The notes beneath the pieces are model-generated. The model was not told where the DNA came from. It saw nothing but the letters and a program-made list of their open reading frames with translations, and ran no database searches. Shown piece by piece: positions 31,866 through 64,000 of a stretch of 64,000 bases of DNA. The DNA lies in contig JAUYKQ010000010.1 of the NCBI GenBank assembly GCA_030699905.1, positions 2,554 to 66,553 of the forward strand, in the 5' to 3' direction. Positions within the stretch are counted from its first letter, which is position 1. Each line of letters begins with the position of its first letter. The stretch comes from a bacterium (lineage in GTDB: Bacteria > Patescibacteriota > Minisyncoccia > Phycocordibacterales > GCA-002787175). A program made the translations under genes and the position numbers.

Positions 31866-32876
31866 GTGTATATTGTTTGTATGAAAATCGTCATTGCCAC
31901 AGGTATTTATCCTCCGCAAATCGGCGGTCCTGCCCAATATGCCAAAAATTTGGCCCTCGCATTTGAGTCGCTCGGGCACGCTGTTTCTGTCGTTCATTAC
32001 AAGTTTGAAAACCTGCTTCCTACCGGTCTGCGTCATGTTTTCTTCTTTTTGCGTGTTTTCGGCAGAATGCTAAAAGCTGATTTTGTCGTATCACTGGACT
32101 CTTTCAGTGTTGGTTTCCCGACTGCCGTGGCCACCGGAATTTTGGGGAAAAAACATGTCATGCGCACCGGCGGAGATTTTCTGTGGGAGTCGTATGTGGA
32201 GAGAACGGGAGACACTGTTCTTTTGAAAAATTTTTACGACACAAGATTGGCCAAACTGTCTTTTAAAGAAAAAGTCATTTTCTCTTTAACGAAGTGGACT
32301 CTGAAAAAGGCCGACAAGGTGGTTTTCAGCACCGACTGGCAGAGAAGCATCTGGGCTCGGCCTTATGAGATGAACTGGCAAAATACTGCCATTATTGAAA
32401 ACTACTATGGACCGAAAGAAAAGTCGGAAAAACCGACAGTAAAGACCTTTTTGGGGGCGACACGCAAACTAAAATGGAAAAACCACGCCCGACTCAAATC
32501 GGCTTTTGCCATGGCGAAAGTGAAGGAGCGAGATATAGAGCTTGATCTTGAAAACGAGCCATACGATAAATTTATTCAAAAAATGAAGAAATGTTATGCC
32601 GTGGTACTTTTGTCTTTGGGTGACATAAGTCCGAATATGATATTGGACTCTGTACGCTTTTCCAAACCCTTTATATTGACCAGAGAAAACGGTCTTTACG
32701 ACAGGTTGAAAGACGTCGGAATGTTCGCGGATCCTGAAGATGAAAACGATATCGCGGAAAAGATAAAAGACCTATGCCAGCCGGAGGTTTATGAAGAGTA
32801 CCGAAGAAGAGTGGAGGGTTTCACTTTCGTGCACACTTACGAAGATATCGCGAAAGAATTTTTATCACTGTCATGA
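31866..32876 (+). CDS. Glycosyltransferase, GT4-like (GT-B).
   Basis: N-terminal MKIVIATGIYPPQIGGPAQYAKNLA typical of the GT4 N-domain. Confidence 0.55.
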   Translation: MYIVCMKIVIATGIYPPQIGGPAQYAKNLALAFESLGHAVSVVHYKFENLLPTGLRHVFFFLRVFGRMLKADFVVSLDSFSVGFPTAVATGILGKKHVMRTGGDFLWESYVERTGDTVLLKNFYDTRLAKLSFKEKVIFSLTKWTLKKADKVVFSTDWQRSIWARPYEMNWQNTAIIENYYGPKEKSEKPTVKTFLGATRKLKWKNHARLKSAFAMAKVKERDIELDLENEPYDKFIQKMKKCYAVVLLSLGDISPNMILDSVRFSKPFILTRENGLYDRLKDVGMFADPEDENDIAEKIKDLCQPEVYEEYRRRVEGFTFVHTYEDIAKEFLSLS

Positions 32877-34054
32877 AGGTCTTATCCATAGGAACAGACA
32901 GAAAATTATTTGAAGAAGAAAGCGACGTCCTGTCGCGAACTTTGGAGTACGCGAAACTTTTTGACGAGCTTCATGTTATCGTCTTCACGACAAAAAAATT
33001 CAAGATTCGAAATTTGAGATTTAAGAACGGAGACAGGAAGATGGCGATATCGGATAATTGTTGGATTTATCCGACCTGTTCACGGAATCGCTGGTTTTAT
33101 GTTTTTGACGCAATTGCCCTCGGTGTTCAGATCCTAAGTCATAAATCTGAAATTACAAATCAGGAAAACGGCTTTGTTGTTTCCTGTCAAGACCCTTTTG
33201 AATGCGGTCTTGCCGGCGCGCGTATTGCAAAAAAAACCGGCGCTAAACTTCACGTACAGATTCATACCGACTTTTTGAGTCCTTATTTTAAAAAAGGAGG
33301 TTTTCTAAACATGGTTCGGCTATTTTTAGCCGGCCGTGTCTTGCCTAAAGCAGACGCCATACGGGTGGTATCAAAACGCATTGCCGATTCTTTGGTCTTT
33401 AAATATAAAAATATAAAGGTGTCAAAACTTTCAATTCTGCCCATGTTTTTGGATGAGGGAAAAATAAAAAACGCTCCCGTAACCGCGGATTTACATAAAA
33501 AATATCCAAAGTTCACTTTTATCGTTCTTGTGTTGTCTCGTTTTACAAAGGAGAAAAACATACTCTTGGCCATTGACGCTTTTTCCAGAGTCGTCCTAAA
33601 ACATCCGCGCGCCGGCCTTGTCATTGTCGGTTCCGGTCCACAGATGTCGTTCCTCAAGGCGCAAGTGGCGCGAAGCAATTTATCTCAAAACGTCGTGTTT
33701 GAAGGTTGGACTTCCGACCCATACTCCTACATCAAAAGTTCTGATTTGGTTTTGCAGACGTCTTGGTACGAAGGTTACGGTCTTGCTGTCGCGGAATCTC
33801 TTCTTTGCGGTATACCGGTTGTTTCCACTTCTGTCGGGGTGGCGACGGAACTTCTCATGGATAACGCGTATTCGTTTGTTTGCGAACCCGGGGACGCAAA
33901 ATGCCTTTCAGAAAAAATGACGGCTTTTATGGAAAAAAGAACTCTTTTCGGATTTGTGGTTGAAAATGCGCGGAGGAAATTGCAAGGCGGCCTTCCCACA
34001 AAAGAAGAGTACTTGAGAAAATACAAAAATTCGGTTTTTTCAGTATTTTCTTAA
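32873..34054 (+). CDS. Glycosyltransferase family 4.
   Basis: EGYGLAVAESLLCGIPVVSTSVGVATELL (EX7E). Confidence 0.7.
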   Translation: MKVLSIGTDRKLFEEESDVLSRTLEYAKLFDELHVIVFTTKKFKIRNLRFKNGDRKMAISDNCWIYPTCSRNRWFYVFDAIALGVQILSHKSEITNQENGFVVSCQDPFECGLAGARIAKKTGAKLHVQIHTDFLSPYFKKGGFLNMVRLFLAGRVLPKADAIRVVSKRIADSLVFKYKNIKVSKLSILPMFLDEGKIKNAPVTADLHKKYPKFTFIVLVLSRFTKEKNILLAIDAFSRVVLKHPRAGLVIVGSGPQMSFLKAQVARSNLSQNVVFEGWTSDPYSYIKSSDLVLQTSWYEGYGLAVAESLLCGIPVVSTSVGVATELLMDNAYSFVCEPGDAKCLSEKMTAFMEKRTLFGFVVENARRKLQGGLPTKEEYLRKYKNSVFSVFS

Positions 34055-34218
34055 GGGACTGTTGCCGAATAGGCTTTTGAGTTGATTTTTTCAAAATTCG
34101 TGCGAGGCGAAGTTTCAAATTTATGGCTTAATGCTCTAAAGTATTGGCCAAAAATTTGAAACAAGCCGTAGCCGAATTTTGGGGAAATCAGCCAAAATGG
34201 ATATTCGGCAACAGTCCC
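34055..34218. mobile_element. MITE-like element, 164 bp, with perfect 17-bp terminal inverted repeats GGGACTGTTGCCGAATA. Inserted exactly at the TAA stop of the upstream glycosyltransferase gene, with TTAA on both flanks (possible target site duplication).
   Basis: Left TIR 34055-34071, right TIR 34202-34218 (reverse complement). The same 12-nt termini form the hairpin at 1457-1493. Confidence 0.7.
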
Positions 34219-34445
34219 CTTAAAGCATGTTTGAAAAACCTATCGCGATGCCGATTTTGCAAAATTTGAGGAAAAAATGGTGAAGATGAGGGAAGTGTAC
34301 CGAGGTGCTCTGACCGAAGATGAGTCATTTTTTACCGAATTTTGCGGAATCGGCGCGCGAAACAGTCCGCTTGCGGATTTCTTAAATATCTGTGGTAGGG
34401 TTTTCAAACATGTTCTAAATTCAGATTTTGATATAAAATGTTTCA

Positions 34446-35402
34446 ATGTCCAAAAATCTTCTTATAGGATTTATAGGCCAGGGCTACATCGGCAGAAACT
34501 ATGCAGATGATTTTGAAAGGCGGGGATACTCCGTGACGAGGTACGCCTTGGAGCCAGAATATTCCGCCAATAAAGAAAAGATAAAAGAATGCGACATCGT
34601 ATTCATTGCCGTGCCTACACCGACTGTGCCCGCCGAAGCTTTACGCAAAGGCGCGGATGTGCCCGCCGACTTGTCCGCCAAAGCTTTAGCGTCGGAGGAA
34701 GCTTCCCGTGAAGGAGGGCGACTTTCCGTGAAATTTGACGATTCAATCTTGCGCGATGTAGTTCCTCTTGTCGGCAAAGGCAAGATAGCCGTTATAAAAT
34801 CCACCATTTTGCCGGGGACTACGATGTCAATTCAGCGTGAAAATCCTGATGTCATTGTTTTGAACTCCCCTGAATTTTTAAGCGAAGCGACAGCCGATAA
34901 AGACACAGGGATGCCTTTTATGAACATTGTCGGAATGCCGGAAGACAGCCCGAGTTTCCGTTCTGCGGCCGAGAGGGCGCATTCGGTATTGCCGAAAGCT
35001 CCTTTCTCGCTGACTTGCAAAAGTATTGAAGCGGAAATAATAAAATACGCTCATAACGGATCGGGTTATACGCAGATAATTTTCTTCAATGCAATGTATG
35101 ATATTGCGCGGAAACTTGGTGCTGACTGGGAGCCGATAGAAAAGGCGATCTTGAACGACCCTTTGGTCTGTGGCCGTTACGCGAAGCCCGTCCACAAAAG
35201 CGGTCGAGGAGCGGGAGGAAATTGTTTTATAAAAGATTTCGCCGCTTTGTCAAAGTTTTATGCGGAAAATACCTCTGACTCAAAAGGCGCGGCATTTTTC
35301 CAAGCAGCCGAGAGAAAAAATATTGAGCTTTTGCGTTCCACAGGCAAAGACACAGGACTTTTGAAAGGAGTTTATGGCGAAGATGTTTCAAATAATCCCT
35401 AA
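34446..35402 (+). CDS. UDP-glucose/GDP-mannose dehydrogenase family protein. Short (318 aa, lacks the C-terminal UDP-binding domain) with an in-frame Ala/Glu/Ser-rich insertion.
   Basis: Rossmann N-terminus IGFIGQGYIG, IAVPTPT, NPEFLSEATA, GRGAGGNCFIKD. Confidence 0.6.
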   Translation: MSKNLLIGFIGQGYIGRNYADDFERRGYSVTRYALEPEYSANKEKIKECDIVFIAVPTPTVPAEALRKGADVPADLSAKALASEEASREGGRLSVKFDDSILRDVVPLVGKGKIAVIKSTILPGTTMSIQRENPDVIVLNSPEFLSEATADKDTGMPFMNIVGMPEDSPSFRSAAERAHSVLPKAPFSLTCKSIEAEIIKYAHNGSGYTQIIFFNAMYDIARKLGADWEPIEKAILNDPLVCGRYAKPVHKSGRGAGGNCFIKDFAALSKFYAENTSDSKGAAFFQAAERKNIELLRSTGKDTGLLKGVYGEDVSNNP

Positions 35403-35445: not shown

Positions 35446-35712
35446 ATGTCTAAATCCCTCCAAAACAAATCTTCTAAAACCGTTCAAGCGAAAGAATATA
35501 CAGGTGATGATGTCAAGCGGTTTATAAATATAATCCAGGAGGAAAACAGGGCTAATTTTAAGATGATGTGCGAGCGGTTTGATTGCATACAAAGGACTTT
35601 GGACATTCACACTAAAATGCTAATGGAGTCAATCGTCTGCATGACAAAAACATCGGGGCGATTCATCAATGTCATACGCGTATCCGTTATTGAAAAGAAA
35701 GTCGCGCAATGA
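35446..35712 (+). CDS. Small hypothetical protein.
   Basis: ORF overlapping the next gene start by 4 nt. Confidence 0.3.
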   Translation: MSKSLQNKSSKTVQAKEYTGDDVKRFINIIQEENRANFKMMCERFDCIQRTLDIHTKMLMESIVCMTKTSGRFINVIRVSVIEKKVAQ

Positions 35713-36746
35713 AACTTCTTATCGTTACGCAGAAAGTTGATAAAAAAGACCCGACACTCGGGTTTTTTCACAGTTGGATTGAAGAGTTTGCCAAACGTTG
35801 CGAGTCCGCAATTGTGATTTGCCTTGAAAAAGGCCAGTATAATCTGCCTCATAACGTGCAAGTTTTCTCTCTCGGCAAAGAACAAAAAGCTTCTCGTTTT
35901 AAAATACTTTTTACTTTTTACTTTTTACTTTTCAGCTTGCGTCATCGCTATGACGCCGTCTTTGTTCATATGAACGAGGAGTACGTTTTGCTGGCAGGCC
36001 TTTTTTGGAGATTGACGGGCAAGAAAATCTTTTTCTGGCGAAATCACCCGAGGGGTGGAATATTCACTCGTTTGTCCGTTTTTCTTTCGGACAGAGTATT
36101 TTACACTTCAAATCTGTCTTTTACCGCGGGCTTTAAAAATGCTTCCGTGATGCCCGCTGGCGTGGACACGTCCATTTTTAAGCCGTCTGAAAGTTTCCAA
36201 AGAAGAAAGCATTCTATATGCATGGTTGGTCGAGTGGCCAAGATAAAAGGTATTGACGTGGCCCTGCGCGCTTTGAAGTTTACAGCGGAAATTTATCCTG
36301 AAACGGTTTTGACTATCGTGGGCCCTACCGCTGTTGAGGATGAAAAATATCGCGCCGAACTCCAAAAATATATCCAAGAAAACAACCTTTCGGGAAACGT
36401 GGTTTTTAAAGGCGCTCTGCCACAGTCAGAACTTCCTGTAATTTACGGCGGTCATGAAATATACTTGAATCTTACTGACGACGGTTCTTTTGACAAAACA
36501 ATAGTGGAAGCGGCCGGTTGCGGTTCTTTCGTCGTTACCTCAAACTCTTTTTTGTTCGGCCATCTTCCAAAAGAATGCGCGACTGAAAAAGACCCTCAAA
36601 GCGTGGCGCGCTCTTTAACCGACGCGTTTAAACTCCAAAACAGAGAAAAAATAGCCGGAGAATTGGAGGTGTTCGCGAACAACCATTCTCTTTCAAAACT
36701 TATGGAAAAAGTTACCGCTGAGATGATTGCATTCGGCTTAAAATAA
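35709..36746 (+). CDS. Glycosyltransferase family 4.
   Basis: VGRVAKIKGIDVALRAL...EAAGCGSFVVTSN. Confidence 0.7.
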   Translation: MKLLIVTQKVDKKDPTLGFFHSWIEEFAKRCESAIVICLEKGQYNLPHNVQVFSLGKEQKASRFKILFTFYFLLFSLRHRYDAVFVHMNEEYVLLAGLFWRLTGKKIFFWRNHPRGGIFTRLSVFLSDRVFYTSNLSFTAGFKNASVMPAGVDTSIFKPSESFQRRKHSICMVGRVAKIKGIDVALRALKFTAEIYPETVLTIVGPTAVEDEKYRAELQKYIQENNLSGNVVFKGALPQSELPVIYGGHEIYLNLTDDGSFDKTIVEAAGCGSFVVTSNSFLFGHLPKECATEKDPQSVARSLTDAFKLQNREKIAGELEVFANNHSLSKLMEKVTAEMIAFGLK

Positions 36747-36767: not shown

Positions 36768-37745
36768 ATGTTGTCTTTTTTTATAAAACAAACTCGTATA
36801 AAAATACGCCATATAAGCAACACTTTCCGTTCGCCAACCGGCAAGTCGCCCAAAATCATAATAACAGGTGGTCTGGGGTTTATCTTTTCTCATGTTACTG
36901 AATACTACGTTCAGAAGGGCTGGGACGTGGTTGTCATAGACAACCTCTCTGAAGGCAGTTGTCCGGAAATAATAGACGATTCTTTTACGCACTACCACTA
37001 TCACATGGCCGACCCAAGAGTGGTGAATCTCATACTTCGGGAGAACCCCGATTATGTAATCCACGCGTCTTCCGTTACCGATGTGGACTACTCAATCAGA
37101 GAACCGTACAGAACCGTCCGTAAAAATATTTTAAGCACCCTGCATGTTTTTGAGGCCTGTCGGATTCTGCCTAATCTTAAAAAACTGATTTACGTTTCCA
37201 CCGATGAGGTCTTTGGTGAGTGCGACCATAAAATGCGTGAAGATGAAATAATGCTCCCGAAAAATCCATACTCCTGCGCCAAAGCGGCCGGCTCTCTTGT
37301 CAGGGTCGCTTACGACAACACTTATCCGGCTTTGCGAGGCAAGACGGCGGAAACAAGATTTTGCAACGTGTTCGGCCCGAGGCAAGACAAGGCCAAGATA
37401 ATGTCGGCCATAAAGAAAAGTATAGAAGAAGGATATTCAATACCTCTTCATCAGGAAGGCAAGGGATACAGAGAATATATTTACGTCAAGAACATTCCGC
37501 CTGCCATTGACCTTATTCTTGAGAAGGGGCTCGGTGTTTACAATGTCACGCTAAATGACGGCTTCACTACAAAAAGTTTGATAGAAAAAGCCAGAGAGGT
37601 TACGGGCATGGAAATTAAAACTCATCCCTCTCACAGGCCGGGCATGGATCTTAAATATCAAATGGACGGTTCAAAGATACGAGAACTGGGGTGGGAACCG
37701 CTTTACACTTTTGAGGAGGGGTTGAAGGAATATCTTTTGGATTAG
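36768..37745 (+). CDS. NAD-dependent sugar epimerase/dehydratase, RmlB-like NDP-hexose 4,6-dehydratase family (SDR).
   Basis: GGLGFIFSHV Rossmann motif. Catalytic YSCAKAAGSLV (YxxxK, RmlB-like). Confidence 0.7.
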   Translation: MLSFFIKQTRIKIRHISNTFRSPTGKSPKIIITGGLGFIFSHVTEYYVQKGWDVVVIDNLSEGSCPEIIDDSFTHYHYHMADPRVVNLILRENPDYVIHASSVTDVDYSIREPYRTVRKNILSTLHVFEACRILPNLKKLIYVSTDEVFGECDHKMREDEIMLPKNPYSCAKAAGSLVRVAYDNTYPALRGKTAETRFCNVFGPRQDKAKIMSAIKKSIEEGYSIPLHQEGKGYREYIYVKNIPPAIDLILEKGLGVYNVTLNDGFTTKSLIEKAREVTGMEIKTHPSHRPGMDLKYQMDGSKIRELGWEPLYTFEEGLKEYLLD

Positions 37746-37837
37746 AAAAAAGATAAAAGGAAAGGAGGCCTTTGGGGCCTCCTTTTTGAAGAACGAAGTA
37801 TATCCGAAGCTTCGCTTCGGAGACAGGACGAAAGGTT

Positions 37838-38362
37838 TTACAGCCAGCCCCTGTAAACAGAATAGTAGCGAACCATTAGCTCGTACGGTCTGTTTAACCA
37901 TTTTCTCCTGGCCCACCATTGGCTGTTTTTCGGGTCGTAAATTTCTTCTATACCCGAAGGCACGAGAGGAATAAGTCCCACATTCCTTGCGGACTGAAAC
38001 GCTCTCCAGTAGTGAGGGTAGTATGAAACCATGACTACCCTCTTGACACCTAATTTGTCACAATGAGATTTTAGCCAAAGGGTTATATCCCATGTGTTGA
38101 GGTAATTCGGCGATGCTTCCGTCTGGCGTAAACTAACGGCAGTTAGCGGAACATTCGGCAGGTATGGTTTCAGCTCTCCTTGAATTATTACTGGCACTCT
38201 CAGTTGAGCATAGAGAGTTTCTACGACGCTTGCCAGAAATATGTTGACCATACTTGGCTTAGAATCGCTGTTTTCTGCGGCCGCATGCGACATGATCGCT
38301 CCGGCATCCTTGATGCTTGTTTCCGGCACTTGCCATGAGGTAGTACACTTCCAAATTTTCAT
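37838..38362 (-). CDS. DUF218 (YdcF/ElyC-like) domain protein.
   Basis: KRVVMVSYYPHYWRAFQSARNVGL resembles the DUF218 C-terminal motif. Paralogous to 52005-52538. Confidence 0.4.
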   Translation of the reverse strand: MKIWKCTTSWQVPETSIKDAGAIMSHAAAENSDSKPSMVNIFLASVVETLYAQLRVPVIIQGELKPYLPNVPLTAVSLRQTEASPNYLNTWDITLWLKSHCDKLGVKRVVMVSYYPHYWRAFQSARNVGLIPLVPSGIEEIYDPKNSQWWARRKWLNRPYELMVRYYSVYRGWL

Positions 38363-42090: not shown

Positions 42091-42095
42091 TTTAT

Positions 42096-42926: not shown

Positions 42927-42950
42927 AACCAAGCCGTTCTTTGGATTAAC

Positions 42951-45469: not shown

Positions 45470-45470
45470 A

Positions 45471-46646: not shown

Positions 46647-46647
46647 T

Positions 46648-52538: not shown

Positions 52539-52698
52539 GCCATTCAAAACTGATCGGCATACTATCATGCGAGGTCAGTTTTTTTGTCTTCCTAATACTA
52601 TGATTCCAGTAAAATAAAATATTGTTAACTGCTTTTGTCACGCTTTTTTTACTCCAATCTTTATTCCTGTCATCCATTGTGAAAAAAGTTAACGAATC

Positions 52699-52726
52699 TT
52701 GGCAAGGTTTTTTAAAGTGGTATCAT
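52699..52726 (+). promoter_or_regulatory. Sigma70-like promoter TTGGCA-16-TATCAT.
   Basis: ttggca (52699-704), 16-nt spacer, tatcat (52721-726). Confidence 0.35.
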
Positions 52727-52767
52727 GTAAAAAGTTAGGTAAACAACGAACCAAGAAAGGGTATAGC

Positions 52768-53265: not shown

Positions 53266-53283
53266 AACCTGATACATTTTTCA

Positions 53284-56023: not shown

Positions 56024-56035
56024 GTTTATGAATAG

Positions 56036-56941: not shown

Positions 56942-57020
56942 GGTAGATGCGCTTATAAATAGTGGCAGATACCCTTACAAATGGGACATGCGAATAAAAG
57001 AAGTTGCGAAGAGTGGGCGT

Positions 57021-57887: not shown

Positions 57888-57893
57888 TTGGAT

Positions 57894-59096
57894 CTATAAT
57901 TTAAGAATATTATCAATAAAGCCGGCAAATGTCCTGCTAAACGCTTCTTTCGTGTGGTTTTTCCTCGCGAACGACCACACTTCGCGAGAGAGCTTTTTGA
58001 CCTCCTTCGGTGGAAGAGTTGAAAAGTCCTCTACCGCTTCAGCGATATTTTCTATTGAAGGTTCGTCTATAACCTTGCTCGGAGCTTCCTCATAGATGCC
58101 TGTATTTCGCGTTACGATAGGGAAGATGCCCGCCTGCATGGCGTGTACGGTAGCTCCGCCACCGCCTTCGGAAGCTGACATGTATACGGTCGCGCCACAT
58201 TTGTTGAAGATGTCTAAAATGTTGATGCCGTCAGTCATGATTTTTCCGTCTTTCATGATTTTGGGTCGGCTATAGCGTTTTATATTCGGCAGAGAAAGCT
58301 CGCGCGCATATATTCTCTCAAATTCTTTCTCAAACGCGGATGGTCCCACGACGGAGAGATTTAGATGGGGGAGGGAAGCGAATGTCTCTACAACGAGATC
58401 GAGACCCTTCAATATCGCTCCGCCTCCTCCGAACCATAAGAAGTTCTTTCTGGCCTTATTGAAATCTTTATTTTCCGGAAACTCGTATATGTCCATTGCC
58501 GGCACGGGGACTTTTAGTATTTCTTTTCCAAATTTTTCGTATGTACCATGCACGGTCTTGTTGCCGTATCCCAGGATGAAGTCCGCGACAGACGGGTCGC
58601 TGGTCATGGGGTCTGTTCGTTTGGCCGGGAGGGTTACCCCCCGCCTTTTCTCAAAATTCCTCAATCTTTTTGCCTCAGCTTCGTTTTGGAATGAAGGATG
58701 AGAGGCCACGAGAAACATAACTTTTTTGCATTCTTTGGGAAGGTAACGCGATAATCTTTCAAGATTATACTGCATGTCTATACAAACAGCGTATTTTTTT
58801 CTCGGGACGAACCTAAAGTCGTCCCAGTTTGTAACATCAACATCGTATCCCCGATCCAGGAAAAGTTTTGCGATTTCTAAACATGTCCAATAATTCGGAT
58901 GCGGGTCGGTAAAGTATTCTCCCGGCGCTTGGATAAAGGGGCCTGTTATAAAAGAAAGCAATACTACCCCTTTTTTATTTTCCGGGGTATGGAGAGAAAC
59001 AAGCCCAAAGGCCTTATTCGTGATTTTGTTTTTATATGCGGTTATATACCGTCCCAATATATTTGTCATATATTTGTTTGATGGGATTCCAGCCAT
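57894..59096 (-). CDS. GT-B fold glycosyltransferase (GT1/GT4-like).
   Basis: C-terminal EGGGGATVHAMQAGIFPIV (GT-B nucleotide-binding motif). Confidence 0.5.
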   Translation of the reverse strand: MAGIPSNKYMTNILGRYITAYKNKITNKAFGLVSLHTPENKKGVVLLSFITGPFIQAPGEYFTDPHPNYWTCLEIAKLFLDRGYDVDVTNWDDFRFVPRKKYAVCIDMQYNLERLSRYLPKECKKVMFLVASHPSFQNEAEAKRLRNFEKRRGVTLPAKRTDPMTSDPSVADFILGYGNKTVHGTYEKFGKEILKVPVPAMDIYEFPENKDFNKARKNFLWFGGGGAILKGLDLVVETFASLPHLNLSVVGPSAFEKEFERIYARELSLPNIKRYSRPKIMKDGKIMTDGINILDIFNKCGATVYMSASEGGGGATVHAMQAGIFPIVTRNTGIYEEAPSKVIDEPSIENIAEAVEDFSTLPPKEVKKLSREVWSFARKNHTKEAFSRTFAGFIDNILKL

Positions 59097-60817
59097 AGCT
59101 CAAGACAGAAAAGTACCCAGACCTTGTAATACATACCCTTGTTTTTTTTACTGTAAAAAAGGGAAACAATCTCTCGCACGGCTTCTTTTTCAAGAAATTC
59201 ATACACATGCGCCGTGTTCCCGAATTTTTCCAGAATAAGCGTTTTCAGTTCCTTTGTACGCAACCATTCTTCAACCGGCGCGCCAAAACCTTGTTTTCGC
59301 CGATAGACAAATTCTTTCGGCATGATTTCAGCGAGGATTTCCTTCAAAATGATTTTGTTTTCGTTTTTGTTCATCTTGTACTCTATCGGCAGATTATACA
59401 CGAATTCAGCCAGTTTATAATCAAGAAAAGGGGAGCGTACCTCAAGTCCGTGCATCATGCTCATCCTGTCTATCTTGGTTAAAAGCTGTCCGGGAAGATA
59501 CACGGACAAATCAAAAAGATTTATCTTTTCAATATCATTCAAACCCTCGAAACTTTTGAGATTGAAATCCGACGAACTTTTCTGTCCGCGAAGTTTTCTT
59601 ATCTCCCCGGGAGTGAAAATAGATATGTTTTTCAAGTATCCTTTAAATGGGCTAAGAAACAGTTTTTGGAAAGTGTGTTTTTTCCACGAAAGGTGCCAGT
59701 GCTTCTGATACCAGCCGTATCCCATGAATAGTTCGTCCGCGCCGTCTCCGGAGAGGGCGACCTTGACCCTCTCCGAAGCGAATTTAGAAAGGAGGGATTG
59801 AGGAAAGAGAGATGAATCCGCGTGAGGTTCGTCAAGGTATTTCAAACAATCTTTTAAGACGTCAATCTGGTCTTCGCTGGCTTGGAGAGTGAAATGGTCT
59901 GTGCCTATTTTGTCAGATGCTTCTTTGGCGTATGGCAATTCGTTTCGGTGCGACCCGTATCCCAAGGAGAAAGTTTTAATCGGTAAAGGTGAAAATTTTT
60001 GAGCGTATGCCGTCACCATAGTTGAATCAACTCCTCCCGATAAAAAGCTTCCAATTTCCACATCAGCCACCATTCTTTTCCTAACCGCTTCGGTAAAAAG
60101 TTTTTTTATTTCTTCTTTGGCGTCTTCGTAAGTAATATCCAAGGGTCTCTGCTCCGGTTGCCAGTATCTACTTTTTTGAAGCTTGCCGTTTTCGTATACG
60201 GCGTATTCGGCAGGGGAGAGTGTGAAGATGTTTTTATAAACCGTCTTCCACGGCGGAATATACATGAGGGTGAGGTAGTCGTCTATGGCTTCAGGTGATA
60301 TCTCGCCCTTAATCTTTCCGGATGCAAAAAGGGCTTTTATTTCCGATGCTACCAAGAGGTTATTTGAATCATCGTAGGCGTAATAAATGGGCTTCTTTCC
60401 GAAACGATCGCGAGCCATGAAAAGCTTCTGCTTTCCTTCGTCCCAAATTGCAAAAGCGAACATGCCATCCAAATATTTCGGGCAGTCGGTTCCGTATTCC
60501 TGATATGCTTTGAGGATTACTTCAGTGTCGGAGTTGGTGCTAAAAATGTAACCTTTCGTTTGAAAATCCATTTTCAGTTCTTTGTAATTGTATATTTCTC
60601 CGTTGAAACTTATGGCGATATTTCGCTTATTGTCGCGCATCGGCTGATGCCCGCCGGAGAGGTCTATTATGGAGAGACGAGTTTGCCCCAAAATACAGTT
60701 GGGGAATTCCAATATGCCTTTATCGTCCGGCCCTCTTTTTTCAAGAGAAGCAATCATTGCATTTGTATTTATGCGACAATCCGACGATTTTTTTACTATT
60801 GCGATAATTCCACACAT
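59066..60817 (-). CDS. asnB: Asparagine synthetase B (glutamine-hydrolysing) family amidotransferase; glycan-modifying WbpS-like in this context.
   Basis: N-terminal MCGIIAIV (Ntn Cys) and PP-loop SGGVDST. Confidence 0.8.
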   Translation of the reverse strand: MCGIIAIVKKSSDCRINTNAMIASLEKRGPDDKGILEFPNCILGQTRLSIIDLSGGHQPMRDNKRNIAISFNGEIYNYKELKMDFQTKGYIFSTNSDTEVILKAYQEYGTDCPKYLDGMFAFAIWDEGKQKLFMARDRFGKKPIYYAYDDSNNLLVASEIKALFASGKIKGEISPEAIDDYLTLMYIPPWKTVYKNIFTLSPAEYAVYENGKLQKSRYWQPEQRPLDITYEDAKEEIKKLFTEAVRKRMVADVEIGSFLSGGVDSTMVTAYAQKFSPLPIKTFSLGYGSHRNELPYAKEASDKIGTDHFTLQASEDQIDVLKDCLKYLDEPHADSSLFPQSLLSKFASERVKVALSGDGADELFMGYGWYQKHWHLSWKKHTFQKLFLSPFKGYLKNISIFTPGEIRKLRGQKSSSDFNLKSFEGLNDIEKINLFDLSVYLPGQLLTKIDRMSMMHGLEVRSPFLDYKLAEFVYNLPIEYKMNKNENKIILKEILAEIMPKEFVYRRKQGFGAPVEEWLRTKELKTLILEKFGNTAHVYEFLEKEAVREIVSLFYSKKNKGMYYKVWVLFCLELWLESHQTNI

Positions 60818-60854
60818 ATAGATTAGTCCATAAAGTCGAAAGTTTAAGATTGAT

Positions 60855-61730
60855 TTAAAGTTTTAACCAACTATGGGGAATAATATCTGCTGGTTCAGTC
60901 GTCTTATCTAAAAACCATTTTTTAGGAGCAATTACGGTCTTATTTGCATTTTCATTTAACCACGCACCCCACCAGCTAAAACTAGAATTTGCAATAATAT
61001 TACTTTTACACTTCGTCATTAGTATCATCTCTTCAAAGTCGCTAAGCGAAAAGTCAGATGCAAATACGGGGCTATTTAAGAAATGCAAATTATTCTTCAC
61101 CCAATCAGTGTCATCCGAGAATACATAGAATTTCGGGTTAGGATATTTTTTGCCGATCTCGTTTACGGCTTTATTGTAATATTCTGCGGAACATAACCCG
61201 TAATTTTTTAAAAGTTCGGGATTTGAAACATAATCTCCTCTCCGTATATGGATCGATACCGAATCAGATGAAGCGATCTCTTCAATCCTCTGCGACATTT
61301 CTGGAGGGATTTCCTTTAGTGTAAATTCCCTCCGAATCGTCTCTTCAATGTCTTTGAAATATTTTTCGCTCTGCCAATACCCATCCATGTACACATCGTC
61401 CTTTAATTCAAGTACGTGAGGATTAAAACCGAATCCCTTCTCTGTTATATAAATGGAGCTGTCGGCGACCATTCTGTTGTATATAAATCTGAAATATCTG
61501 ATATTACTTTTCTTATATATCTTGAAACGTCGGATATCCTTTTTCGAGGCATTGTCTCCCGTTATGTTAAATTTATCAAGCGAAAATGACCGCACGGTGG
61601 AATTTCCACCTCCACTGAAAAAACTCAAATCAAGTTTAAGCTCGGCCTTGTTTACTTTCGCCACTCTTCGCGCCGTTGCATACTGAAACATCTGATTGCC
61701 GAGACCTCCCATTAGTTTAACCATTATCAT
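60855..61730 (-). CDS. GT11 alpha-1,2-fucosyltransferase family glycosyltransferase.
   Basis: MVKLMGGLGNQMFQYA and SIHIRRGDY. Start at the internal Met so as not to overlap the upstream GT2 gene. Confidence 0.7.
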   Translation of the reverse strand: MIMVKLMGGLGNQMFQYATARRVAKVNKAELKLDLSFFSGGGNSTVRSFSLDKFNITGDNASKKDIRRFKIYKKSNIRYFRFIYNRMVADSSIYITEKGFGFNPHVLELKDDVYMDGYWQSEKYFKDIEETIRREFTLKEIPPEMSQRIEEIASSDSVSIHIRRGDYVSNPELLKNYGLCSAEYYNKAVNEIGKKYPNPKFYVFSDDTDWVKNNLHFLNSPVFASDFSLSDFEEMILMTKCKSNIIANSSFSWWGAWLNENANKTVIAPKKWFLDKTTEPADIIPHSWLKL

Positions 61731-62620
61731 ACGAATTTTTTTAAAAACTTTCTGTAATTTCTCTGCTTCATGTGAATGAAAAAAGCTCGCGGAAGACGGA
61801 TTAGGAGCAAGAGGGCGCATAGAGGGCGGTACGAAGTTCCTTTCAGGGCTTCCATATGGCTTTTGAAGTAGGTGTCAAACCGGCCATAAGGGAACATGTG
61901 GTTTTTCGGGTCTTTTATGATTATTCTTTTCACCGAGCTTACGCTGTCATTTTTGGTTGAATTGGGACTTGAAAATCCGCCGTGCCTTTTTTTGAAAAGC
62001 ACTCGCGAATCCACATAGACCTTAAAACGACTCACAACCGCCAAACTGAAATGATAATCCGAACCCCACTCTCTTTTTTGCGGATAGATTTCCCACGCTT
62101 TTCGTACGACTTCGGTTTTGAAAAGGGCGTACATAAAGTGGTTTTTTCCCAATATTTCCGGCTGGAGAACATATTTCGTTACCTGCCTTATCCCCGGTTT
62201 TCCGGAAAACTTTGTGAATTCCGTCATTTCTCGTAAATTTCTGCCGTAAGAATCCACGTCCGCGACGACTGTTTGCGCGACATCAACGTTTCTTTTTTCT
62301 ATATTTTCAACGCACACTTTGATAAAGTCCTTTTCCCAGATGTCATCGTGAGAGGCCCACATGAAATATGGCGTATCTGCTTGGTCCATTACAAATTTTA
62401 AGTTGGGAAACATTCCCAGATTTTTTTCTTGTTTGCAGTATTTCACTCGCGCGTCTCTTCTCATGTATTCCATGCATATTTTTTCCGTAGTGTCTTTGGA
62501 CGCGTCATTGGATATGAAAAGGGTAATGTCCCTAAACGACTGACCAAGAAGGGACTCTATGGCTTGTCGCATAGTCGCTTCTCCGTTATATACAGGCATT
62601 CCTATAAATACTTTTGACAT
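61727..62620 (-). CDS. Glycosyltransferase family 2.
   Basis: VFIGMPVYNGEATMRQAIESLLGQSF...FISNDASKDTT. Confidence 0.75.
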   Translation of the reverse strand: MSKVFIGMPVYNGEATMRQAIESLLGQSFRDITLFISNDASKDTTEKICMEYMRRDARVKYCKQEKNLGMFPNLKFVMDQADTPYFMWASHDDIWEKDFIKVCVENIEKRNVDVAQTVVADVDSYGRNLREMTEFTKFSGKPGIRQVTKYVLQPEILGKNHFMYALFKTEVVRKAWEIYPQKREWGSDYHFSLAVVSRFKVYVDSRVLFKKRHGGFSSPNSTKNDSVSSVKRIIIKDPKNHMFPYGRFDTYFKSHMEALKGTSYRPLCALLLLIRLPRAFFIHMKQRNYRKFLKKFV

Positions 62621-62623
62621 AAG

Positions 62624-63322
62624 TTATTTGACCCTTTTTAAGTATCCGTTAACATTGAATGTCGCGTTCTTACCGAACATATCGCAATATTTTATATCAA
62701 CTTCAAAATTGCTGTCAGAATTTAAAAACTCTCTAATCGCCCTAAGAGGACCTCCATTAAATCCCTTTTCTTTGGACAGATAATTTACAATACCGTCTTC
62801 CACGATAAAATAGGAACCGATTGAAACGAGCGGGGCGAATTTGCGAAGGGCTCCAATAGTATCTTCATACATATGAGATCCGTCCTCTATTACGAGCACT
62901 TTAGAAAATCCTTTGGTTTCCTTGATATCATATTTCTCCCATCCTTCTGTGAACAGTTTAATTCTCGGATGCCGCGCCAGTGATTCGTCTGATTGTTTTT
63001 TTATGTCTATAGTGTGAATGGTTCCATGTCCCAGTGTTTCCATGATGTCTGCCATATACAGGGTCCCTCCACCTATGTTTGTTCCGATATCAATAACAAG
63101 GTCCGGCTTTACGGAACAAATTATCATCTGGTAAATTACATAATCAAAAGGGCATTTAAGAGCTGGAATTCCTCTGTAAGTAACCTCAAAATGTCCCGAG
63201 TAGATGGAGTTCGTGTCAAAATATATCTGCTCATTTTTCGGAGCAAACATGAATTGTTTTTTTAGTAACCGATAAATAAAAAACACTTTATCCGGCAAAA
63301 ATTTTCTTAGTATCTGTTTCAT
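62624..63322 (-). CDS. Cephalosporin hydroxylase (CmcI)-family class I SAM methyltransferase (sugar O-methyltransferase-like).
   Basis: PDLVIDIGTNIGGGTLYMA and VLVIEDGSH motifs. Confidence 0.65.
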   Translation of the reverse strand: MKQILRKFLPDKVFFIYRLLKKQFMFAPKNEQIYFDTNSIYSGHFEVTYRGIPALKCPFDYVIYQMIICSVKPDLVIDIGTNIGGGTLYMADIMETLGHGTIHTIDIKKQSDESLARHPRIKLFTEGWEKYDIKETKGFSKVLVIEDGSHMYEDTIGALRKFAPLVSIGSYFIVEDGIVNYLSKEKGFNGGPLRAIREFLNSDSNFEVDIKYCDMFGKNATFNVNGYLKRVK

Positions 63323-63389
63323 AAAATTCAGGATTTATAGTTTTTATATAGTCCCTCGGGGCAGATCCTCTGGGGACCATATAAGCTCC

Positions 63390-63550
63390 TCGGCTCGCCC
63401 CGTTAGAAGCTTTGCTTCTAACGGGGCTCGGGAGTGAAAAGTCAAAGCACTTTTCACTCCTCTCGCATAACGATCGCTTATATAGACATACTATATAAGC
63501 TCCTCGGCTCGGGAGTGAAAAGTCAAAGCACTTTTCACTCCTCTCGCTCT
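63390..63550. repeat. Two direct copies of a ~55-nt unit, each with a 12-bp perfect hairpin (ggagtgaaaagt caaagc acttttcactcc). The first copy carries an extra nested hairpin (ccccgttagaagc/gcttctaacgggg).
   Basis: ataagctcctcggctcg...ggagtgaaaagtcaaagcacttttcactcctctcgc is repeated. Confidence 0.55.
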
Positions 63551-63557
63551 ACGTCGC

Positions 63558-64000
63558 TTATAAACCATCCTTGGTCTCATAATCGCCACCCCAACAGGAT
63601 CTTATCCGTTTTAGTGTGCTGAAGGCCTCATCAATGGCTTTAAGTGCGTTATTGATGTTAAATTTACTGTCATAATATTTTTTTACTTTGCCATCTTTTT
63701 TGTCATTTAGCATCAGCATAATTTGATTGGCTATGTCGTCAGGGTCTAATCCGTCAAAGTAATAACCGTAATTTCCTAGTTGTTCAACGTGTCCCGGTAA
63801 GTTGGTACAAGCTACCGGACAATCCAACTCCGCTGCCTCAAGAAGAGGCATGTTGGTTGGTCCCAGCAACGTCGGCATGACCAGACCTTGAGATTTGTTG
63901 TAGAGCCAACGCAATTCTTCCAGTGAGACAAATCCCAAATCAATCACATTATTTTCCAGTTTCAGGTCAGTAATAGTTTTTAGTATGTACTTCTTGTTAC
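63558..64000 (-). CDS. Glycosyltransferase family 4, C-terminal part (gene continues past the window end).
   Basis: LVMPTLLGPTNMPLLEAAELDCPVACTNLPG (GT-B C-domain). Confidence 0.55.
   Translation of the reverse strand, partial: NKKYILKTITDLKLENNVIDLGFVSLEELRWLYNKSQGLVMPTLLGPTNMPLLEAAELDCPVACTNLPGHVEQLGNYGYYFDGLDPDDIANQIMLMLNDKKDGKVKKYYDSKFNINNALKAIDEAFSTLKRIRSCWGGDYETKDGL

What the first reader, a model, noticed from the sequence alone, without database searches (positions are those of the whole stretch)
31866..64000. ~32 kb surface-glycan island with a lipid-linked 4-amino-sugar, GT-C glycosylation logic
The island is a contiguous block of about 11 glycosyltransferases (GT2, GT4, two GT11-like, one GT-C), 5-6 methyltransferases (FkbM, CmcI-like, class I, MT-GtrA fusion), AsnB, a truncated UDP-sugar dehydrogenase, and an RmlB-like 4,6-dehydratase next to a DegT aminotransferase.
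- Proposed logic: the dehydratase and aminotransferase make an NDP-4-amino-4,6-dideoxy (or 4-amino-pentose) sugar. GT2 enzymes load sugars onto a polyprenyl phosphate, initiated by the WbaP-like enzyme at 4732. The GT-C enzyme transfers the glycan to a protein or lipid acceptor, analogous to Arn or Pgl systems.
- Methyltransferases and AsnB would decorate the glycan with O/N-methyl and amide groups.
- The two GT11 homologs suggest fucose-type capping.
Basis: inference. Interest (0 to 1): 0.55.

Follow-up and report, generated by a model that had tools for sequence, protein, structure and literature searches.

The report
Patescibacterial surface-glycan locus with GT-C modules
This is a real but fairly ordinary cell-surface sugar-polymer gene cluster of an uncultured ultra-small (CPR/Patescibacteria) bacterium; it probably adds some sugars outside the cell from lipid-linked donors, and its amino-sugar enzyme gene is interrupted by a self-splicing intein shared with phages.

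Summary
The inventory is confirmed by HMMs. In 31866-64000, about 26 of 32 ORFs are glycan-related:
- 14 glycosyltransferases: 6 GT4-type, 5 GT2, 2 GT11-like, 1 GT-C
- 5 methyltransferases
- AsnB
- a short UDP-sugar-dehydrogenase-like protein
- two SDRs
- a DegT aminotransferase

- The DegT gene carries a 375-aa LAGLIDADG intein (39393-40517).
- ORFs 50941-51852 and 49569-50948 look like a second GT-C enzyme, split into two polypeptides.
- The locus is conserved chromosomal synteny across Patescibacteria, not a mobile island.

The "GT-C logic" is supported. ORF 42951-44336 models confidently as a GT-C fold. Two short GT2s best match the polyprenyl-phosphate glycosyltransferases DPMS, ArnC and GtrB. 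A GtrA domain is present. The GT-C/GT2/GtrA triad recurs in most related loci.

The "lipid-linked 4-amino-sugar, Arn-like" reading is not supported. The dehydratase/DegT/unk262/unk288 module occurs in only 3 loci, whereas the triad is widespread without it. No ArnA, formyltransferase or deformylase features are present. The WbaP-like gene, 26 kb away, is never syntenic.

Verdict: a new member of a known kind, namely a polysaccharide cluster with three-component extracytoplasmic glycosylation. Acceptor and sugar identities remain unknown. Interest is modest.

The parts
31866..34054 (+). Two GT4-type glycosyltransferase genes (31866-32876, weak; 32873-34054). They are the first two of a conserved GT4 trio.
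   Evidence: Pfam. Homologues in the same order lie upstream of the GT-C gene in 24-31 of 43 related loci.
34446..35402 (+). Short UDP-glucose/GDP-mannose-dehydrogenase-like protein (318 aa). The catalytic GGNCFIKD motif is present; the C-terminal UDP-binding domain is absent.
   Evidence: Pfam. NCBIfam TIGR03026 scores 105 bits, below cut-off. The short form is conserved in L019, L051, L060, L062 and L068.
35709..36746 (+). GT4 glycosyltransferase, third of the conserved trio.
   Evidence: Pfam; synteny.
36768..37745 (+). SDR1: RmlB-like NDP-hexose 4,6-dehydratase candidate with TDE and YxxxK motifs.
   Evidence: TIGR01181 scores 173 bits, below the 365 cut-off. Best PDB match is 2hun, a dTDP-glucose 4,6-dehydratase, with the motifs aligned. 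It is 80% and 69% identical to its counterparts in L006 and L007, where it adjoins DegT.
37838..39033 (-). Two reverse-strand genes: an unknown 174-aa protein and an HD-domain protein. Relative to L006/L007 they are an insertion between SDR1 and DegT.
   Evidence: Pfam. Absent at this position in L006/L007. A convergent hairpin lies at 37761-37785.
39129..41327 (+). DegT/DnrJ/EryC1 sugar aminotransferase gene interrupted by an intein. The spliced product would be 357 aa and keeps the PLP-lysine motif SFQAIKT.
   Evidence: Pfam. The spliced sequence best matches the C4-aminotransferases PseC, WecE-type and ArnB, all below equivalog cut-offs. Alignment with intein-free orthologues.
39393..40517 (+). 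Intein of 375 aa carrying a LAGLIDADG homing endonuclease. It has Cys1, block B TENH, two LAGLIDADG motifs, and a C-terminal HN followed by Cys+1.
   Evidence: Pfam Intein_splicing and LAGLIDADG_2. Translation. Empty-site orthologues are L007:7257-8306 (75%), L006:6582-7628 (67%), P0020 and P0017; the same site is occupied in P0002, P0006, P0012 and P0021.
41302..42926 (+). Two DegT-linked genes of unknown function. unk262 is faintly methyltransferase-like. unk288 belongs to an uncharacterised family with invariant GGWH, HR, HDD, RGSF and EGERG motifs.
   Evidence: No Pfam or PDB hit. Family of 123 representatives. Found only in the DegT-bearing loci L006 and L007.
42951..44336 (+). GT-C-fold membrane glycosyltransferase (461 aa, all-helical, no large extracytoplasmic domain). 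A nearly invariant Asp45 (present in at least 90% of the aligned homologues) lies in the first external loop.
   Evidence: AF2 pLDDT 92.6, pTM 0.91. Foldseek PDB top 25 are all GT-C-fold proteins (PglB, AglB, STT3, ArnT, Pmt, ALG9, PimE), probability up to 1.0. About 95 Patescibacteria homologues, most passing PMT_2, some fused to GT2 or GtrA. Conservation.
44333..45469 (+). GT4 glycosyltransferase.
   Evidence: Pfam. A homologue adjoins the GT-C gene in many loci.
45432..46646 (+). Fusion of a class I methyltransferase with a GtrA-family membrane domain, the putative polyprenyl-phosphate-sugar flippase.
   Evidence: Pfam GtrA_DPMS_TM scores 61 bits, above cut-off, plus MT domains. The GtrA part has stand-alone homologues in about 40 related loci, 8 of them immediately upstream of the GT-C gene. 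The MT part is unique to this genome among the loci examined.
46603..47379 (+). FkbM-family methyltransferase.
   Evidence: Pfam; TIGR01444 above cut-off.
47376..48798 (+). Two short GT2 enzymes (239 and 240 aa) of the polyprenyl-phosphate glycosyltransferase type (DPM1/GtrB/ArnC-like). Neither has C-terminal TM helices.
   Evidence: Pfam. NCBIfam best matches are AglJ, ArnC, PpgS and dolichyl-P-hexose transferase, all below cut-off. Best PDB matches, over the whole catalytic domain, are DPMS 5mlz, ArnC 9hwj/9bhc and GtrB 5ekp. A GT2_a homologue lies immediately downstream of the GT-C gene in 23 of 43 loci.
48803..49567 (+). Class I SAM methyltransferase.
   Evidence: Pfam.
49569..51852 (-). 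Candidate second GT-C enzyme, split into two polypeptides. ORF 50941-51852 (303 aa) is the N-terminal GT-C core with invariant NGYFNMDD and PHGNDH loop motifs. ORF 49569-50948 (459 aa) has about 5 TM segments plus a soluble domain of about 240 aa.
52005..53265 (+). DUF218 and NUDIX-domain proteins. Their role in the pathway is unknown.
   Evidence: Pfam. A strong hairpin at 53283-53316 follows them. L006 has a NUDIX ORF between SDR1 and DegT.
53353..54315 (+). SDR2: NDP-sugar epimerase/dehydratase with TCE and YxxxK motifs. Its specificity is unresolved.
   Evidence: TIGR01181 207 bits and LegB 204 bits, both below cut-off. Best PDB match is Pal 6bwl. Orthologues at 68-73% identity lie next to the split GT-C in L018, L019, L027 and L029.
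54312..63322 (-). Co-directional block of nine genes: GT11-like (54312), DUF268 methyltransferase, GT2, GT2, GT4, AsnB-type amidotransferase (59066-60817), GT11 (60855), GT2, and CmcI-type O-methyltransferase (62624).
   Evidence: Pfam; NCBIfam. The same order (GT11w, DUF268, GT2_c, GT2_d, GT4_e, AsnB) recurs in L026, L028, L032, L041, L064 and L066.
63558..63947 (-). C-terminal part of a further GT4-type gene. The ORF is open towards the window end, so the locus is cut by the window.
   Evidence: Pfam.

Best explanation
The region is the main cell-surface glycan locus of a Patescibacteria (CPR, Paceibacteria-like) bacterium. It sits in a conserved chromosomal neighbourhood and has three functional layers.

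1. Cytoplasmic assembly and decoration (inferred). GT4, GT2 and GT11-like enzymes would assemble a heteroglycan from nucleotide sugars. SAM-dependent methyltransferases would decorate it. An AsnB-type amidotransferase would probably amidate a uronic acid, possibly supplied by the short dehydrogenase-like enzyme.

2. Extracytoplasmic glycosylation (one or two 'three-component' modules).
- The components, their folds and their genetic linkage are shown here: the short GT2s at 47376 and 48076, the GtrA domain of 45432, the GT-C enzyme 42951, and probably the split GT-C 50941/49569.
- The proposed activities are inferred. The short GT2s would load a single sugar onto polyprenyl phosphate. GtrA would flip it. 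The GT-C enzymes would transfer it outside the membrane onto the glycan or glycoconjugate.
- This resembles GtrABC, CsbB/GtcA/YfhO and GacI-L side-chain addition.

3. A strain-variable cassette: SDR1, intein-bearing DegT, unk262 and unk288.
- It would make an NDP-4-amino-4,6-dideoxyhexose derivative (inferred) that feeds a cytoplasmic transferase.
- This cassette is not the core donor for the GT-C enzyme.
- DegT becomes active only after its LAGLIDADG intein splices out. The intein's closest relative sits in a phage DegT gene.
For: - Gene families.
- GT-C fold of 42951: AF2 pLDDT 92.6; all top Foldseek hits are GT-C-fold proteins; a nearly invariant Asp45 (at least 90% of the aligned homologues) lies in the first external loop.
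- The short GT2s align over the full catalytic domain to DPMS, ArnC and GtrB.
- The GtrA domain scores above the Pfam cut-off.
- Natural fusions of GT-C homologues with GT2 (P0144, P0180, P0187, P0192) or GtrA (P0215) exist.
- Synteny in 43 Patescibacteria loci: GT2 within 2.5 kb downstream of the GT-C gene in 31 (immediately in 23); GtrA in 29; both in 23; the GT4 trio in 24-31.
- The DegT cassette is confined to the window, L006 and L007.
- Intein: canonical motifs and empty-site orthologues.
- Phage contexts of the relatives: terminase and tail-protein PHROGs.
- The left flank (VirD4-like, PKD protein, DUF4015, RsmI) is also syntenic.
- The system concept follows PMC11127046, read here. PMC8035078 and PMC9574508 were seen only as titles and abstract openings among the search results.
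Against: - No enzyme reaches an equivalog-level cut-off, so all sugar identities are unknown.
- The short GT2s lack the C-terminal transmembrane helices of GtrB and ArnC.
- No initiating phosphoglycosyltransferase, Wzx/Wzy or ABC exporter was recognised inside 31866-64000 or near the GT-C gene in relatives. How, or whether, a polymer is built and exported is therefore not shown. The acceptor could instead be a protein or a lipid.
- The split-GT-C model has only moderate confidence (pLDDT 78), and its C-terminal partner was not modelled.
- Synteny windows were only +-10 kb, so a DegT further away cannot be excluded.
- The locus runs off the window end.
Confidence: 0.6

Rival explanations
1. Arn-like reading. 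The dehydratase and DegT make an NDP-4-amino sugar. A GT2 loads it onto polyprenyl phosphate. The GT-C enzyme 42951 transfers this amino sugar to a surface lipid, polymer or protein.
For: DegT, unk262, unk288, the GT-C gene, GT4, MT-GtrA, FkbM, GT2, GT2 and MT form one tightly packed co-directional string, 39129-49567. GT2_b's best solved match is ArnC. The DegT cassette sits immediately upstream of the GT-C gene in the window, L006 and L007. The Foldseek hit list includes ArnT.
Against: The GT-C/GT2/GtrA triad is conserved in loci without the cassette: a close DegT in 1 of 43 loci and any DegT in 9 of 43. GT2_b orthologues at 59-73% identity occur in L018, L019, L027 and L029 with no DegT hit. 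SDR1 is a TDE-type 4,6-dehydratase, not a decarboxylase; its ArnA score is 18 bits against a cut-off of 777. No formyltransferase, deformylase or ArnE/F was found. ArnB, ArnC and ArnT equivalog scores are all far below cut-off.
Confidence: 0.12
2. Protein O-glycosylation system of the actinobacterial Ppm1/Pmt type. The GT2s make polyprenyl-P-hexose. The GT-C enzyme(s) glycosylate secreted or surface proteins, such as pilins, S-layer proteins, or the PKD-domain surface protein encoded just upstream at 30279-31844. The remaining glycosyltransferases would serve another glycan.
For: Homologues of 42951 pass Pfam PMT_2 and sometimes PMT, and are named GT39 family in GenBank. Pmt1, Pmt2 and Pmt4 are among the structural matches for both GT-C candidates. 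A signal-peptide, C-terminally anchored PKD protein lies directly upstream, and weak homologues lie near the locus in 5 relatives.
Against: ORF 42951 itself is below the PMT_2 cut-off. It lacks the MIR and luminal domains of GT39 enzymes and is only 461 aa. The structural matches do not favour Pmt over PglB, ArnT or ALG enzymes. The tight embedding among about 12 cytoplasmic glycosyltransferases resembles polysaccharide side-chain systems more than Pmt loci.
Confidence: 0.15
3. Lipoglycan pathway analogous to mycobacterial PIM/LM/LAM. GT4 enzymes glycosylate a membrane lipid in the cytoplasm. After flipping, GT-C enzymes extend it using polyprenyl-P-sugar made by the GT2s. This would need no phosphoglycosyltransferase and no Wzx/Wzy.
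For: The conserved core is a GT4 trio plus a PPM-synthase-like GT2 plus GT-C enzyme(s), with no PGT, Wzx or Wzy recognised in the locus or in relatives. PimE, Emb, AftD and AftB are among the GT-C structural matches. PimB' is among the weak GT4 matches.
Against: The GT4 matches are generic: BshA, TarM and glycogen synthase score equal or better. There is no evidence for a lipid acceptor. Methyltransferases, AsnB and GT11 point to a more complex heteroglycan. The window is cut at its right end, and exporters may lie beyond it.
Confidence: 0.1

Closest known systems
Three-component extracytoplasmic glycosylation systems. These include GtrA/GtrB/Gtr* of Shigella and Salmonella phages, CsbB/GtcA/YfhO of Bacillus and Listeria, and GacI-L in streptococcal rhamnose polysaccharide loci (PMC11127046 was read; PMC8035078, PMC7389260 and PMC9574508 were only listed).
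   Same: A GT2 of the polyprenyl-phosphate glycosyltransferase type, a GtrA-family membrane protein and a GT-C-fold transferase are all present and genetically linked. As with GacI-L, they are embedded in a cluster of cytoplasmic glycosyltransferases.
   Different: The GT2s are about 240 aa and lack TM helices. GtrA is fused to a methyltransferase domain in this genome. The GT-C enzyme belongs to a Patescibacteria-specific subfamily with no sequence-detectable solved relative. A second GT-C candidate is split into two polypeptides. Host, donor sugar and acceptor are unknown.
Arn pathway (ArnA, B, C, D, T, E/F): L-Ara4N modification of lipid A.
   Same: It uses a DegT-family aminotransferase, an ArnC-like GT2 and an ArnT-like GT-C fold.
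   Different: There is no UDP-GlcA decarboxylase/formyltransferase, no deformylase and no ArnE/F. SDR1 is a 4,6-dehydratase type. All Arn equivalog scores are far below cut-off. The DegT cassette is dispensable for the GT-C/GT2/GtrA triad in relatives.
dTDP-4-amino-4,6-dideoxyhexose pathways (RmlB plus WecE, VioA or PseC-type aminotransferases).
   Same: A TDE/YxxxK dehydratase-type SDR is present. The DegT enzyme's best matches are all C4 aminotransferases. The two genes are adjacent in the closest relatives and in the phage contigs.
   Different: No nucleotidyltransferase (RmlA) is in the window. No acyl- or formyltransferase was recognised. Two conserved unknown proteins follow DegT instead. 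The DegT gene carries an intein.
Class 1 inteins with LAGLIDADG homing endonucleases, such as the RecA inteins retrieved as distant hits.
   Same: Cys1, the TxxH block B, two LAGLIDADG motifs, a terminal HN, and insertion at a conserved active-site-proximal motif (ITP[IV]LT|CTATN).
   Different: The host protein is a sugar aminotransferase rather than a replication or repair protein. About 20 such DegT inteins exist in public metagenomes, several on phage contigs. A full-text search for 'intein' plus 'DegT' showed no obviously relevant title among its ten best-ranked papers.

Membership tests
Three-component (GtrA / GT2 / GT-C) extracytoplasmic glycosylation system | A GT2 polyprenyl-phosphate monosaccharide synthase (GtrB, CsbB, DPM1 or ArnC type) | tested here: inconclusive
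   ORFs 47376 and 48076 align over the whole catalytic domain to DPMS 5mlz, ArnC and GtrB. Their best NCBIfam hits are AglJ, ArnC, PpgS and Dol-P-hexose transferase. All are below curated cut-offs, and the C-terminal TM helices are absent.
Three-component (GtrA / GT2 / GT-C) extracytoplasmic glycosylation system | A GtrA-family small polytopic membrane protein (the proposed flippase) | tested here: met
   PF04138 scores 61.2 bits against a cut-off of 26.1, at aa 282-398 of ORF 45432-46646. Stand-alone homologues occur in about 40 related loci.
Three-component (GtrA / GT2 / GT-C) extracytoplasmic glycosylation system | A GT-C-fold integral membrane glycosyltransferase with an acidic residue in the first external loop | tested here: met
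   AF2 pLDDT 92.6. The Foldseek top 25 are all GT-C-fold proteins. Asp45 is nearly invariant, present in at least 90% of 36 sequences.
Three-component (GtrA / GT2 / GT-C) extracytoplasmic glycosylation system | Genetic linkage of the three components | tested here: met
   All three lie in one co-directional string, 42951-48798. In relatives, GT2 is within 2.5 kb in 31 of 43 loci, GtrA is present in 29 of 43, and both in 23 of 43. Fusion proteins also exist.
Three-component (GtrA / GT2 / GT-C) extracytoplasmic glycosylation system | A polyprenyl-phosphate-linked monosaccharide donor used outside the membrane | not testable with these tools
   This needs biochemistry.
Arn (L-Ara4N lipid A modification) pathway | ArnA: UDP-GlcA C4-oxidative decarboxylase plus formyltransferase | tested here: not met
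   SDR1 scores 18 bits and SDR2 78 bits against the ArnA cut-off of 777. SDR1 has the TDE dehydratase motif. No formyltransferase domain appears in any ORF.
Arn (L-Ara4N lipid A modification) pathway | ArnB, ArnC and ArnT equivalogs | tested here: not met
   Spliced DegT scores 154.8 against 631. The GT2s score 66-68 against 529. The GT-C enzyme has no ArnT-specific hit; ArnT is only one of many GT-C fold matches.
Arn (L-Ara4N lipid A modification) pathway | ArnD deformylase and ArnE/F flippase | tested here: not met
   No such domains were found among the island ORFs.
Oligosaccharyltransferase (PglB / AglB / STT3, GT66) | A C-terminal extracytoplasmic domain carrying the WWDxG motif | tested here: not met
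   ORF 42951 is 461 aa and all-helical, with no soluble domain. No WWD motif appears in its sequence or in that of 49569.
GT39 protein O-mannosyltransferase (PMT) | A Pfam PMT or PMT_2 match above cut-off, plus a luminal MIR domain | tested here: inconclusive
   The window protein scores 20.7 bits on PMT_2 against a cut-off of 26.1. Most homologues pass PMT_2. There is no MIR or luminal domain.
dTDP-glucose 4,6-dehydratase (RmlB) | The catalytic Asp-Glu pair (TDE) and YxxxK, plus an equivalog HMM score | tested here: inconclusive
   The motifs are present and aligned to 2hun. TIGR01181 scores 173 bits against a cut-off of 365.
Class 1 intein with LAGLIDADG homing endonuclease | An N-terminal Cys or Ser, block B TxxH, C-terminal His-Asn, and a nucleophile at +1 | tested here: met
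   C1 (CLYQNE), LTENHPILT, and ...NIILHN followed by C. Pfam Intein_splicing scores 48.6 bits against 35.8.
Class 1 intein with LAGLIDADG homing endonuclease | An endonuclease domain, and intein-free (empty-site) alleles of the same host gene | tested here: met
   LAGLIDADG_2 scores 99 bits. L007, L006, P0020 and P0017 read ...LT|CTATN... without any insert.
Class 1 intein with LAGLIDADG homing endonuclease | Demonstrated protein splicing or homing | not testable with these tools
   This needs expression of ORF 39129-41327.

The most novel reading that the evidence does not exclude
The amino-sugar cassette (SDR1, DegT, unk262, unk288) may be a phage-exchanged 'seroconversion' module for CPR bacteria. 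On this reading, phages and hosts trade surface-glycan-altering genes, and the LAGLIDADG intein homes between phage and host DegT alleles. The window's intein is 63% identical to that of a terminase-bearing phage contig, whereas the flanking exteins are only 46-53% identical. In addition, Paceibacteria may carry a previously undescribed GT-C family that is naturally split into two polypeptides (50941/49569), working beside a conventional single-chain GT-C enzyme.
Probability: 0.2. Interest if true: 0.6.

Novelty: new member of a known kind. Interest (0 to 1): 0.35.

Why it matters
CPR/Patescibacteria live attached to host cells, and their surface chemistry is almost unknown.

- The work shows that many of them share one conserved glycan locus built around a GtrA/GT2/GT-C triad. 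This gives a concrete, testable handle on their envelope glycans, which are likely determinants of host attachment and phage recognition.
- The strain-variable amino-sugar cassette has phage relatives. The intein inside a sugar aminotransferase suggests glycan diversification through exchange with phages.
- The conserved two-polypeptide GT-C candidate, if verified, would be an unusual architecture for this enzyme class.
- None of this overturns current knowledge. The components are all of known kinds.

Tried and rejected
- Sequence searches of the GT-C family profile and of unk262/unk288 against PDB sequences found nothing useful. Only fold comparison identified the GT-C enzymes.
- Pfam at E <= 1 gave no credible family for 37838, 41302, 42060, 49569 or 50941.
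- The unk288 family (123 representatives) has no Pfam domain. Its one informative fusion is to a TOD1/MUCI70 glycosyltransferase-like domain. This is not enough to assign a function.
- PDB matches of the GT4 enzymes were generic (BshA, TarM, glycogen synthase, PimB') and could not separate a polysaccharide route from a glycolipid route.
- An attempt to read beyond the window end through the CmcI gene returned only a Logan contig that ends at about the same place. The right boundary is therefore unknown.
- Consensus promoter and terminator scans were near background. They yielded only two convincing intergenic hairpins.
- A literature search for Patescibacteria + glycosyltransferase + GT-C found no paper. 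The search for intein + DegT listed no obviously relevant title among its ten best-ranked papers.
- Rejected: a mobile genomic island. Both the locus and its left flank are syntenic in relatives, and the GC drop is small.
- Rejected: a truncated pseudogene for the dehydrogenase-like ORF.
- Rejected: a frameshift artefact for the split GT-C.

Full report
**Source organism and setting**

- The window is a bacterial chromosome segment of CPR/Patescibacteria type. It carries FtsW, SecD/SecF, a Mur ligase and MraY.
- Its 16S rRNA gene is broken by insertions that encode LAGLIDADG endonucleases. This is a known CPR trait (PMC11270868, seen only as title and abstract opening).
- GenBank holds the same sequence on a 92.5 kb contig labelled 'MAG ... 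[bacterium]' (P0001 and P0121).
- The nearest relatives of its proteins come from Candidatus Paceibacterota, Campbellbacteria and other Patescibacteria MAGs.

**Observation check**

About 26 of the 32 ORFs in 31866-64000 hit glycan-related families in Pfam and NCBIfam scans.

- Six are GT4-type genes. One of these is weak, and one is cut by the window end.
- Five are GT2 genes.
- One is a clear GT11 (60855, 137 bits). One is GT11-like and below cut-off (54312), but it keeps the HIRxGDY motif.
- One is a GT-C candidate (42951).
- Five are methyltransferases: the MT-GtrA fusion at 45432, FkbM at 46603, class I at 48803, DUF268 at 55250 and CmcI at 62624.
- The rest comprise an AsnB that passes its equivalog cut-off, a short UDP-sugar-dehydrogenase-like protein, two extended SDRs and a DegT aminotransferase.

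The inventory is therefore correct, and the glycosyltransferase count (14) is higher than stated. Four details need correcting:

- The dehydratase-like SDR (36768) is separated from DegT by two reverse-strand genes. The two are adjacent in the closest relatives.
- The 'truncated' dehydrogenase is a conserved short form of 281-326 aa with the catalytic Cys motif. It occurs in five other genomes.
- By strand alone there are at least six transcription units. Convincing hairpins lie at 37761-37785 and 53283-53316.
- The locus is cut by the window end.

*1. An intein in DegT.*
- ORF 39129-41327 (732 aa) is a DegT enzyme interrupted at aa 89-463 (nt 39393-40517) by a class 1 intein with a LAGLIDADG endonuclease.
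- It has Cys1, a TENH block B, two LAGLIDADG motifs and a terminal HN followed by Cys+1.
- The orthologues in L007 (75% identical) and L006 (67%), and also P0020 and P0017, read straight through ...ITP[IV]LT|CTATN.... These are empty-site alleles.
- About 20 other DegT genes in public data carry an intein at the same site.

*2. A second, split GT-C candidate.*
- ORF 50941-51852 (303 aa, no Pfam hit) has invariant NGYFNMDD and PHGNDH loop motifs.
- All 13 homologues are about 300 aa. Each is followed by a homologue of ORF 49569-50948, which by inspection of its sequence has about five TM segments plus a soluble domain of about 240 aa.
- Together the pair has the size and layout of a PglB- or Pmt-like GT-C enzyme split after the conserved core. 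The layout argument is inference.

*3. The locus is not a mobile island.*
- I anchored on the GT-C gene and retrieved 79 loci from reference genomes. I then mapped all island proteins onto them.
- The order recurs widely: GT4 trio, (GtrA), GT4, GT-C, GT2, ..., split GT-C, SDR2, GT11-like, DUF268 methyltransferase, GT2, GT2, GT4, AsnB.
- The left flank (RsmI, DUF4015, VirD4-like ATPase, PKD surface protein) is also shared.

**GT-C logic: supported**

- ORF 42951 scores only 20.7 bits on PMT_2. Its homologues pass the cut-off, and GenBank names them GT39-family.
- An alignment-based AF2 model is confident (pLDDT 92.6, pTM 0.91). Its 25 best PDB matches are all GT-C-fold proteins.
- A nearly invariant Asp45 (present in at least 90% of 36 sequences) sits in the first external loop.
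- The two short GT2s (47376, 48076) align across the full catalytic domain to Pyrococcus dolichyl-P-mannose synthase, ArnC and GtrB. The GtrA domain is above cut-off.
- Of 43 Patescibacteria loci with at least 4 kb on both sides:
  - 31 have such a GT2 within 2.5 kb downstream of the GT-C gene, and 23 have it immediately adjacent.
  - 29 have GtrA, and 8 have it immediately upstream.
  - 23 have both.
- Some homologues are GT-C-GT2 or GT-C-GtrA fusions.
- These are the three parts of the 'three-component' periplasmic glycosylation systems, as described in PMC11127046. The arrangement inside a larger glycosyltransferase cluster resembles streptococcal GacI-L. That comparison rests on my own knowledge; PMC9574508 was only listed, not read.

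**4-amino-sugar, Arn-like logic: not supported as stated**

- SDR1 has the TDE/YxxxK signature, and its best solved match is a dTDP-glucose 4,6-dehydratase.
- The spliced DegT best matches C4 aminotransferases (PseC, WecE-type, ArnB).
- An NDP-4-amino-4,6-dideoxyhexose is therefore a reasonable product at family level.
- However, the cassette SDR1-DegT-unk262-unk288 occurs only in the window, L006 and L007. The GT-C/GT2/GtrA triad is widespread without it. Close homologues of GT2_b, the one most ArnC-like, occur in four loci with no DegT hit.
- No decarboxylase, formyltransferase, deformylase or ArnE/F is present, and all Arn equivalog scores are far below cut-off.
- The cassette is better read as a strain-variable add-on that feeds some cytoplasmic step.
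- Apart from the intein-free chromosomal orthologues in L006 and L007, its nearest relatives lie on phage contigs. These carry a large terminase (phrog_38, E = 2e-60), a tail protein (phrog_5302, E = 4e-52), and portal or adaptor hits.
- The window's intein is 63% identical to that of phage contig L002, whereas the exteins are 46-53% identical. This is consistent with, but does not prove, intein homing between phage and host genes.

**Other claims**

- The WbaP-like phosphoglycosyltransferase (4588-6081) is real. It is 26 kb away and is never found within +-10 kb of the GT-C gene in relatives, so the link is unsupported.
- The GT11 assignment is sound for 60855 and motif-level for 54312. No GDP-fucose genes are present, so 'fucose capping' remains a guess.
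- AsnB next to a dehydrogenase-like enzyme makes uronamide formation plausible (inference).

**Open points**

- No initiating enzyme or exporter was recognised in the locus.
- The acceptor may be a polysaccharide (favoured), a protein or a lipid.
- All sugar identities are unknown.
- The MT-GtrA fusion, unk262, unk288, the HD protein, DUF218 and NUDIX have no assigned role.

**Verdict**

The finding is a correctly described glycan locus of a known kind. It is a new member rather than a new system. It has two side features of moderate interest: an intein in DegT with phage relatives, and a conserved split GT-C candidate.

Noticed in passing
window 10183-15919: The 16S rRNA gene matches in two pieces (10183-11392 and 12576-13354). 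These are separated and followed by LAGLIDADG endonuclease ORFs (11872-12639, 14452-15099), two sub-threshold group I intron matches (12474-12671, 14941-15277) and a group II D1-D4 match (14009-14078). Two tRNA-Ile(GAT) genes are present. One of them (11676-11754) lies between the two 16S pieces, which is odd.
   Followed up: partly
window 542-1219: The 3' end of a 23S rRNA (542-930) and a 5S rRNA (1101-1219) lie about 9 kb upstream of the 16S gene, with FtsW, GT4, PGT and SecDF genes between them. The rRNA genes are therefore unlinked or in an unusual order.
   Followed up: no
L002:1138-5172 and L002:12968-15106: The phage contig that carries the closest intein-bearing DegT also has a 1344-aa large terminase with intein/LAGLIDADG signals. 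It also has a 712-aa NDP-sugar epimerase/dehydratase with a LAGLIDADG hit. One phage thus has several intein-invaded genes, including two sugar-nucleotide enzymes.
   Followed up: partly
P0025, P0026, P0017: Intein-free relatives of the DegT enzyme exist as fusions. P0025 and P0026 (Patescibacteria) carry a C-terminal class I methyltransferase. P0017 carries an N-terminal HNH endonuclease/AP2-like segment. The first hints at N-methylated amino sugars; the second hints at another mobile-element association.
   Followed up: partly
window 28387-31844: A VirD4/TraG-like coupling ATPase (28387-30246) and a signal-peptide, C-terminally anchored PKD/LTD-domain surface protein (30279-31844) lie directly upstream of the glycan locus. 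The ATPase is conserved at 55-72% identity upstream of the same locus in 11 relatives.
   Followed up: partly
window 21742-23757: A 671-aa ORF has only faint ATP-grasp and NlpC/P60 signals. It lies between MraY and an RsmI-like methylase and may be a peptidoglycan-related enzyme of unknown type.
   Followed up: no
window 45432-46646: The methyltransferase-GtrA fusion appears unique to this genome among 84 loci. The GtrA part has about 40 stand-alone homologues, while the MT part matched only the window's own copy (L001). Why a flippase-like domain would be fused to a SAM methyltransferase is unexplained.
   Followed up: partly
L038, L044, L061: Some related Patescibacteria loci carry two tandem or nearby copies of the GT-C gene, each followed by a GT2. 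This suggests duplication of the GT-C/GT2 pair.
   Followed up: no
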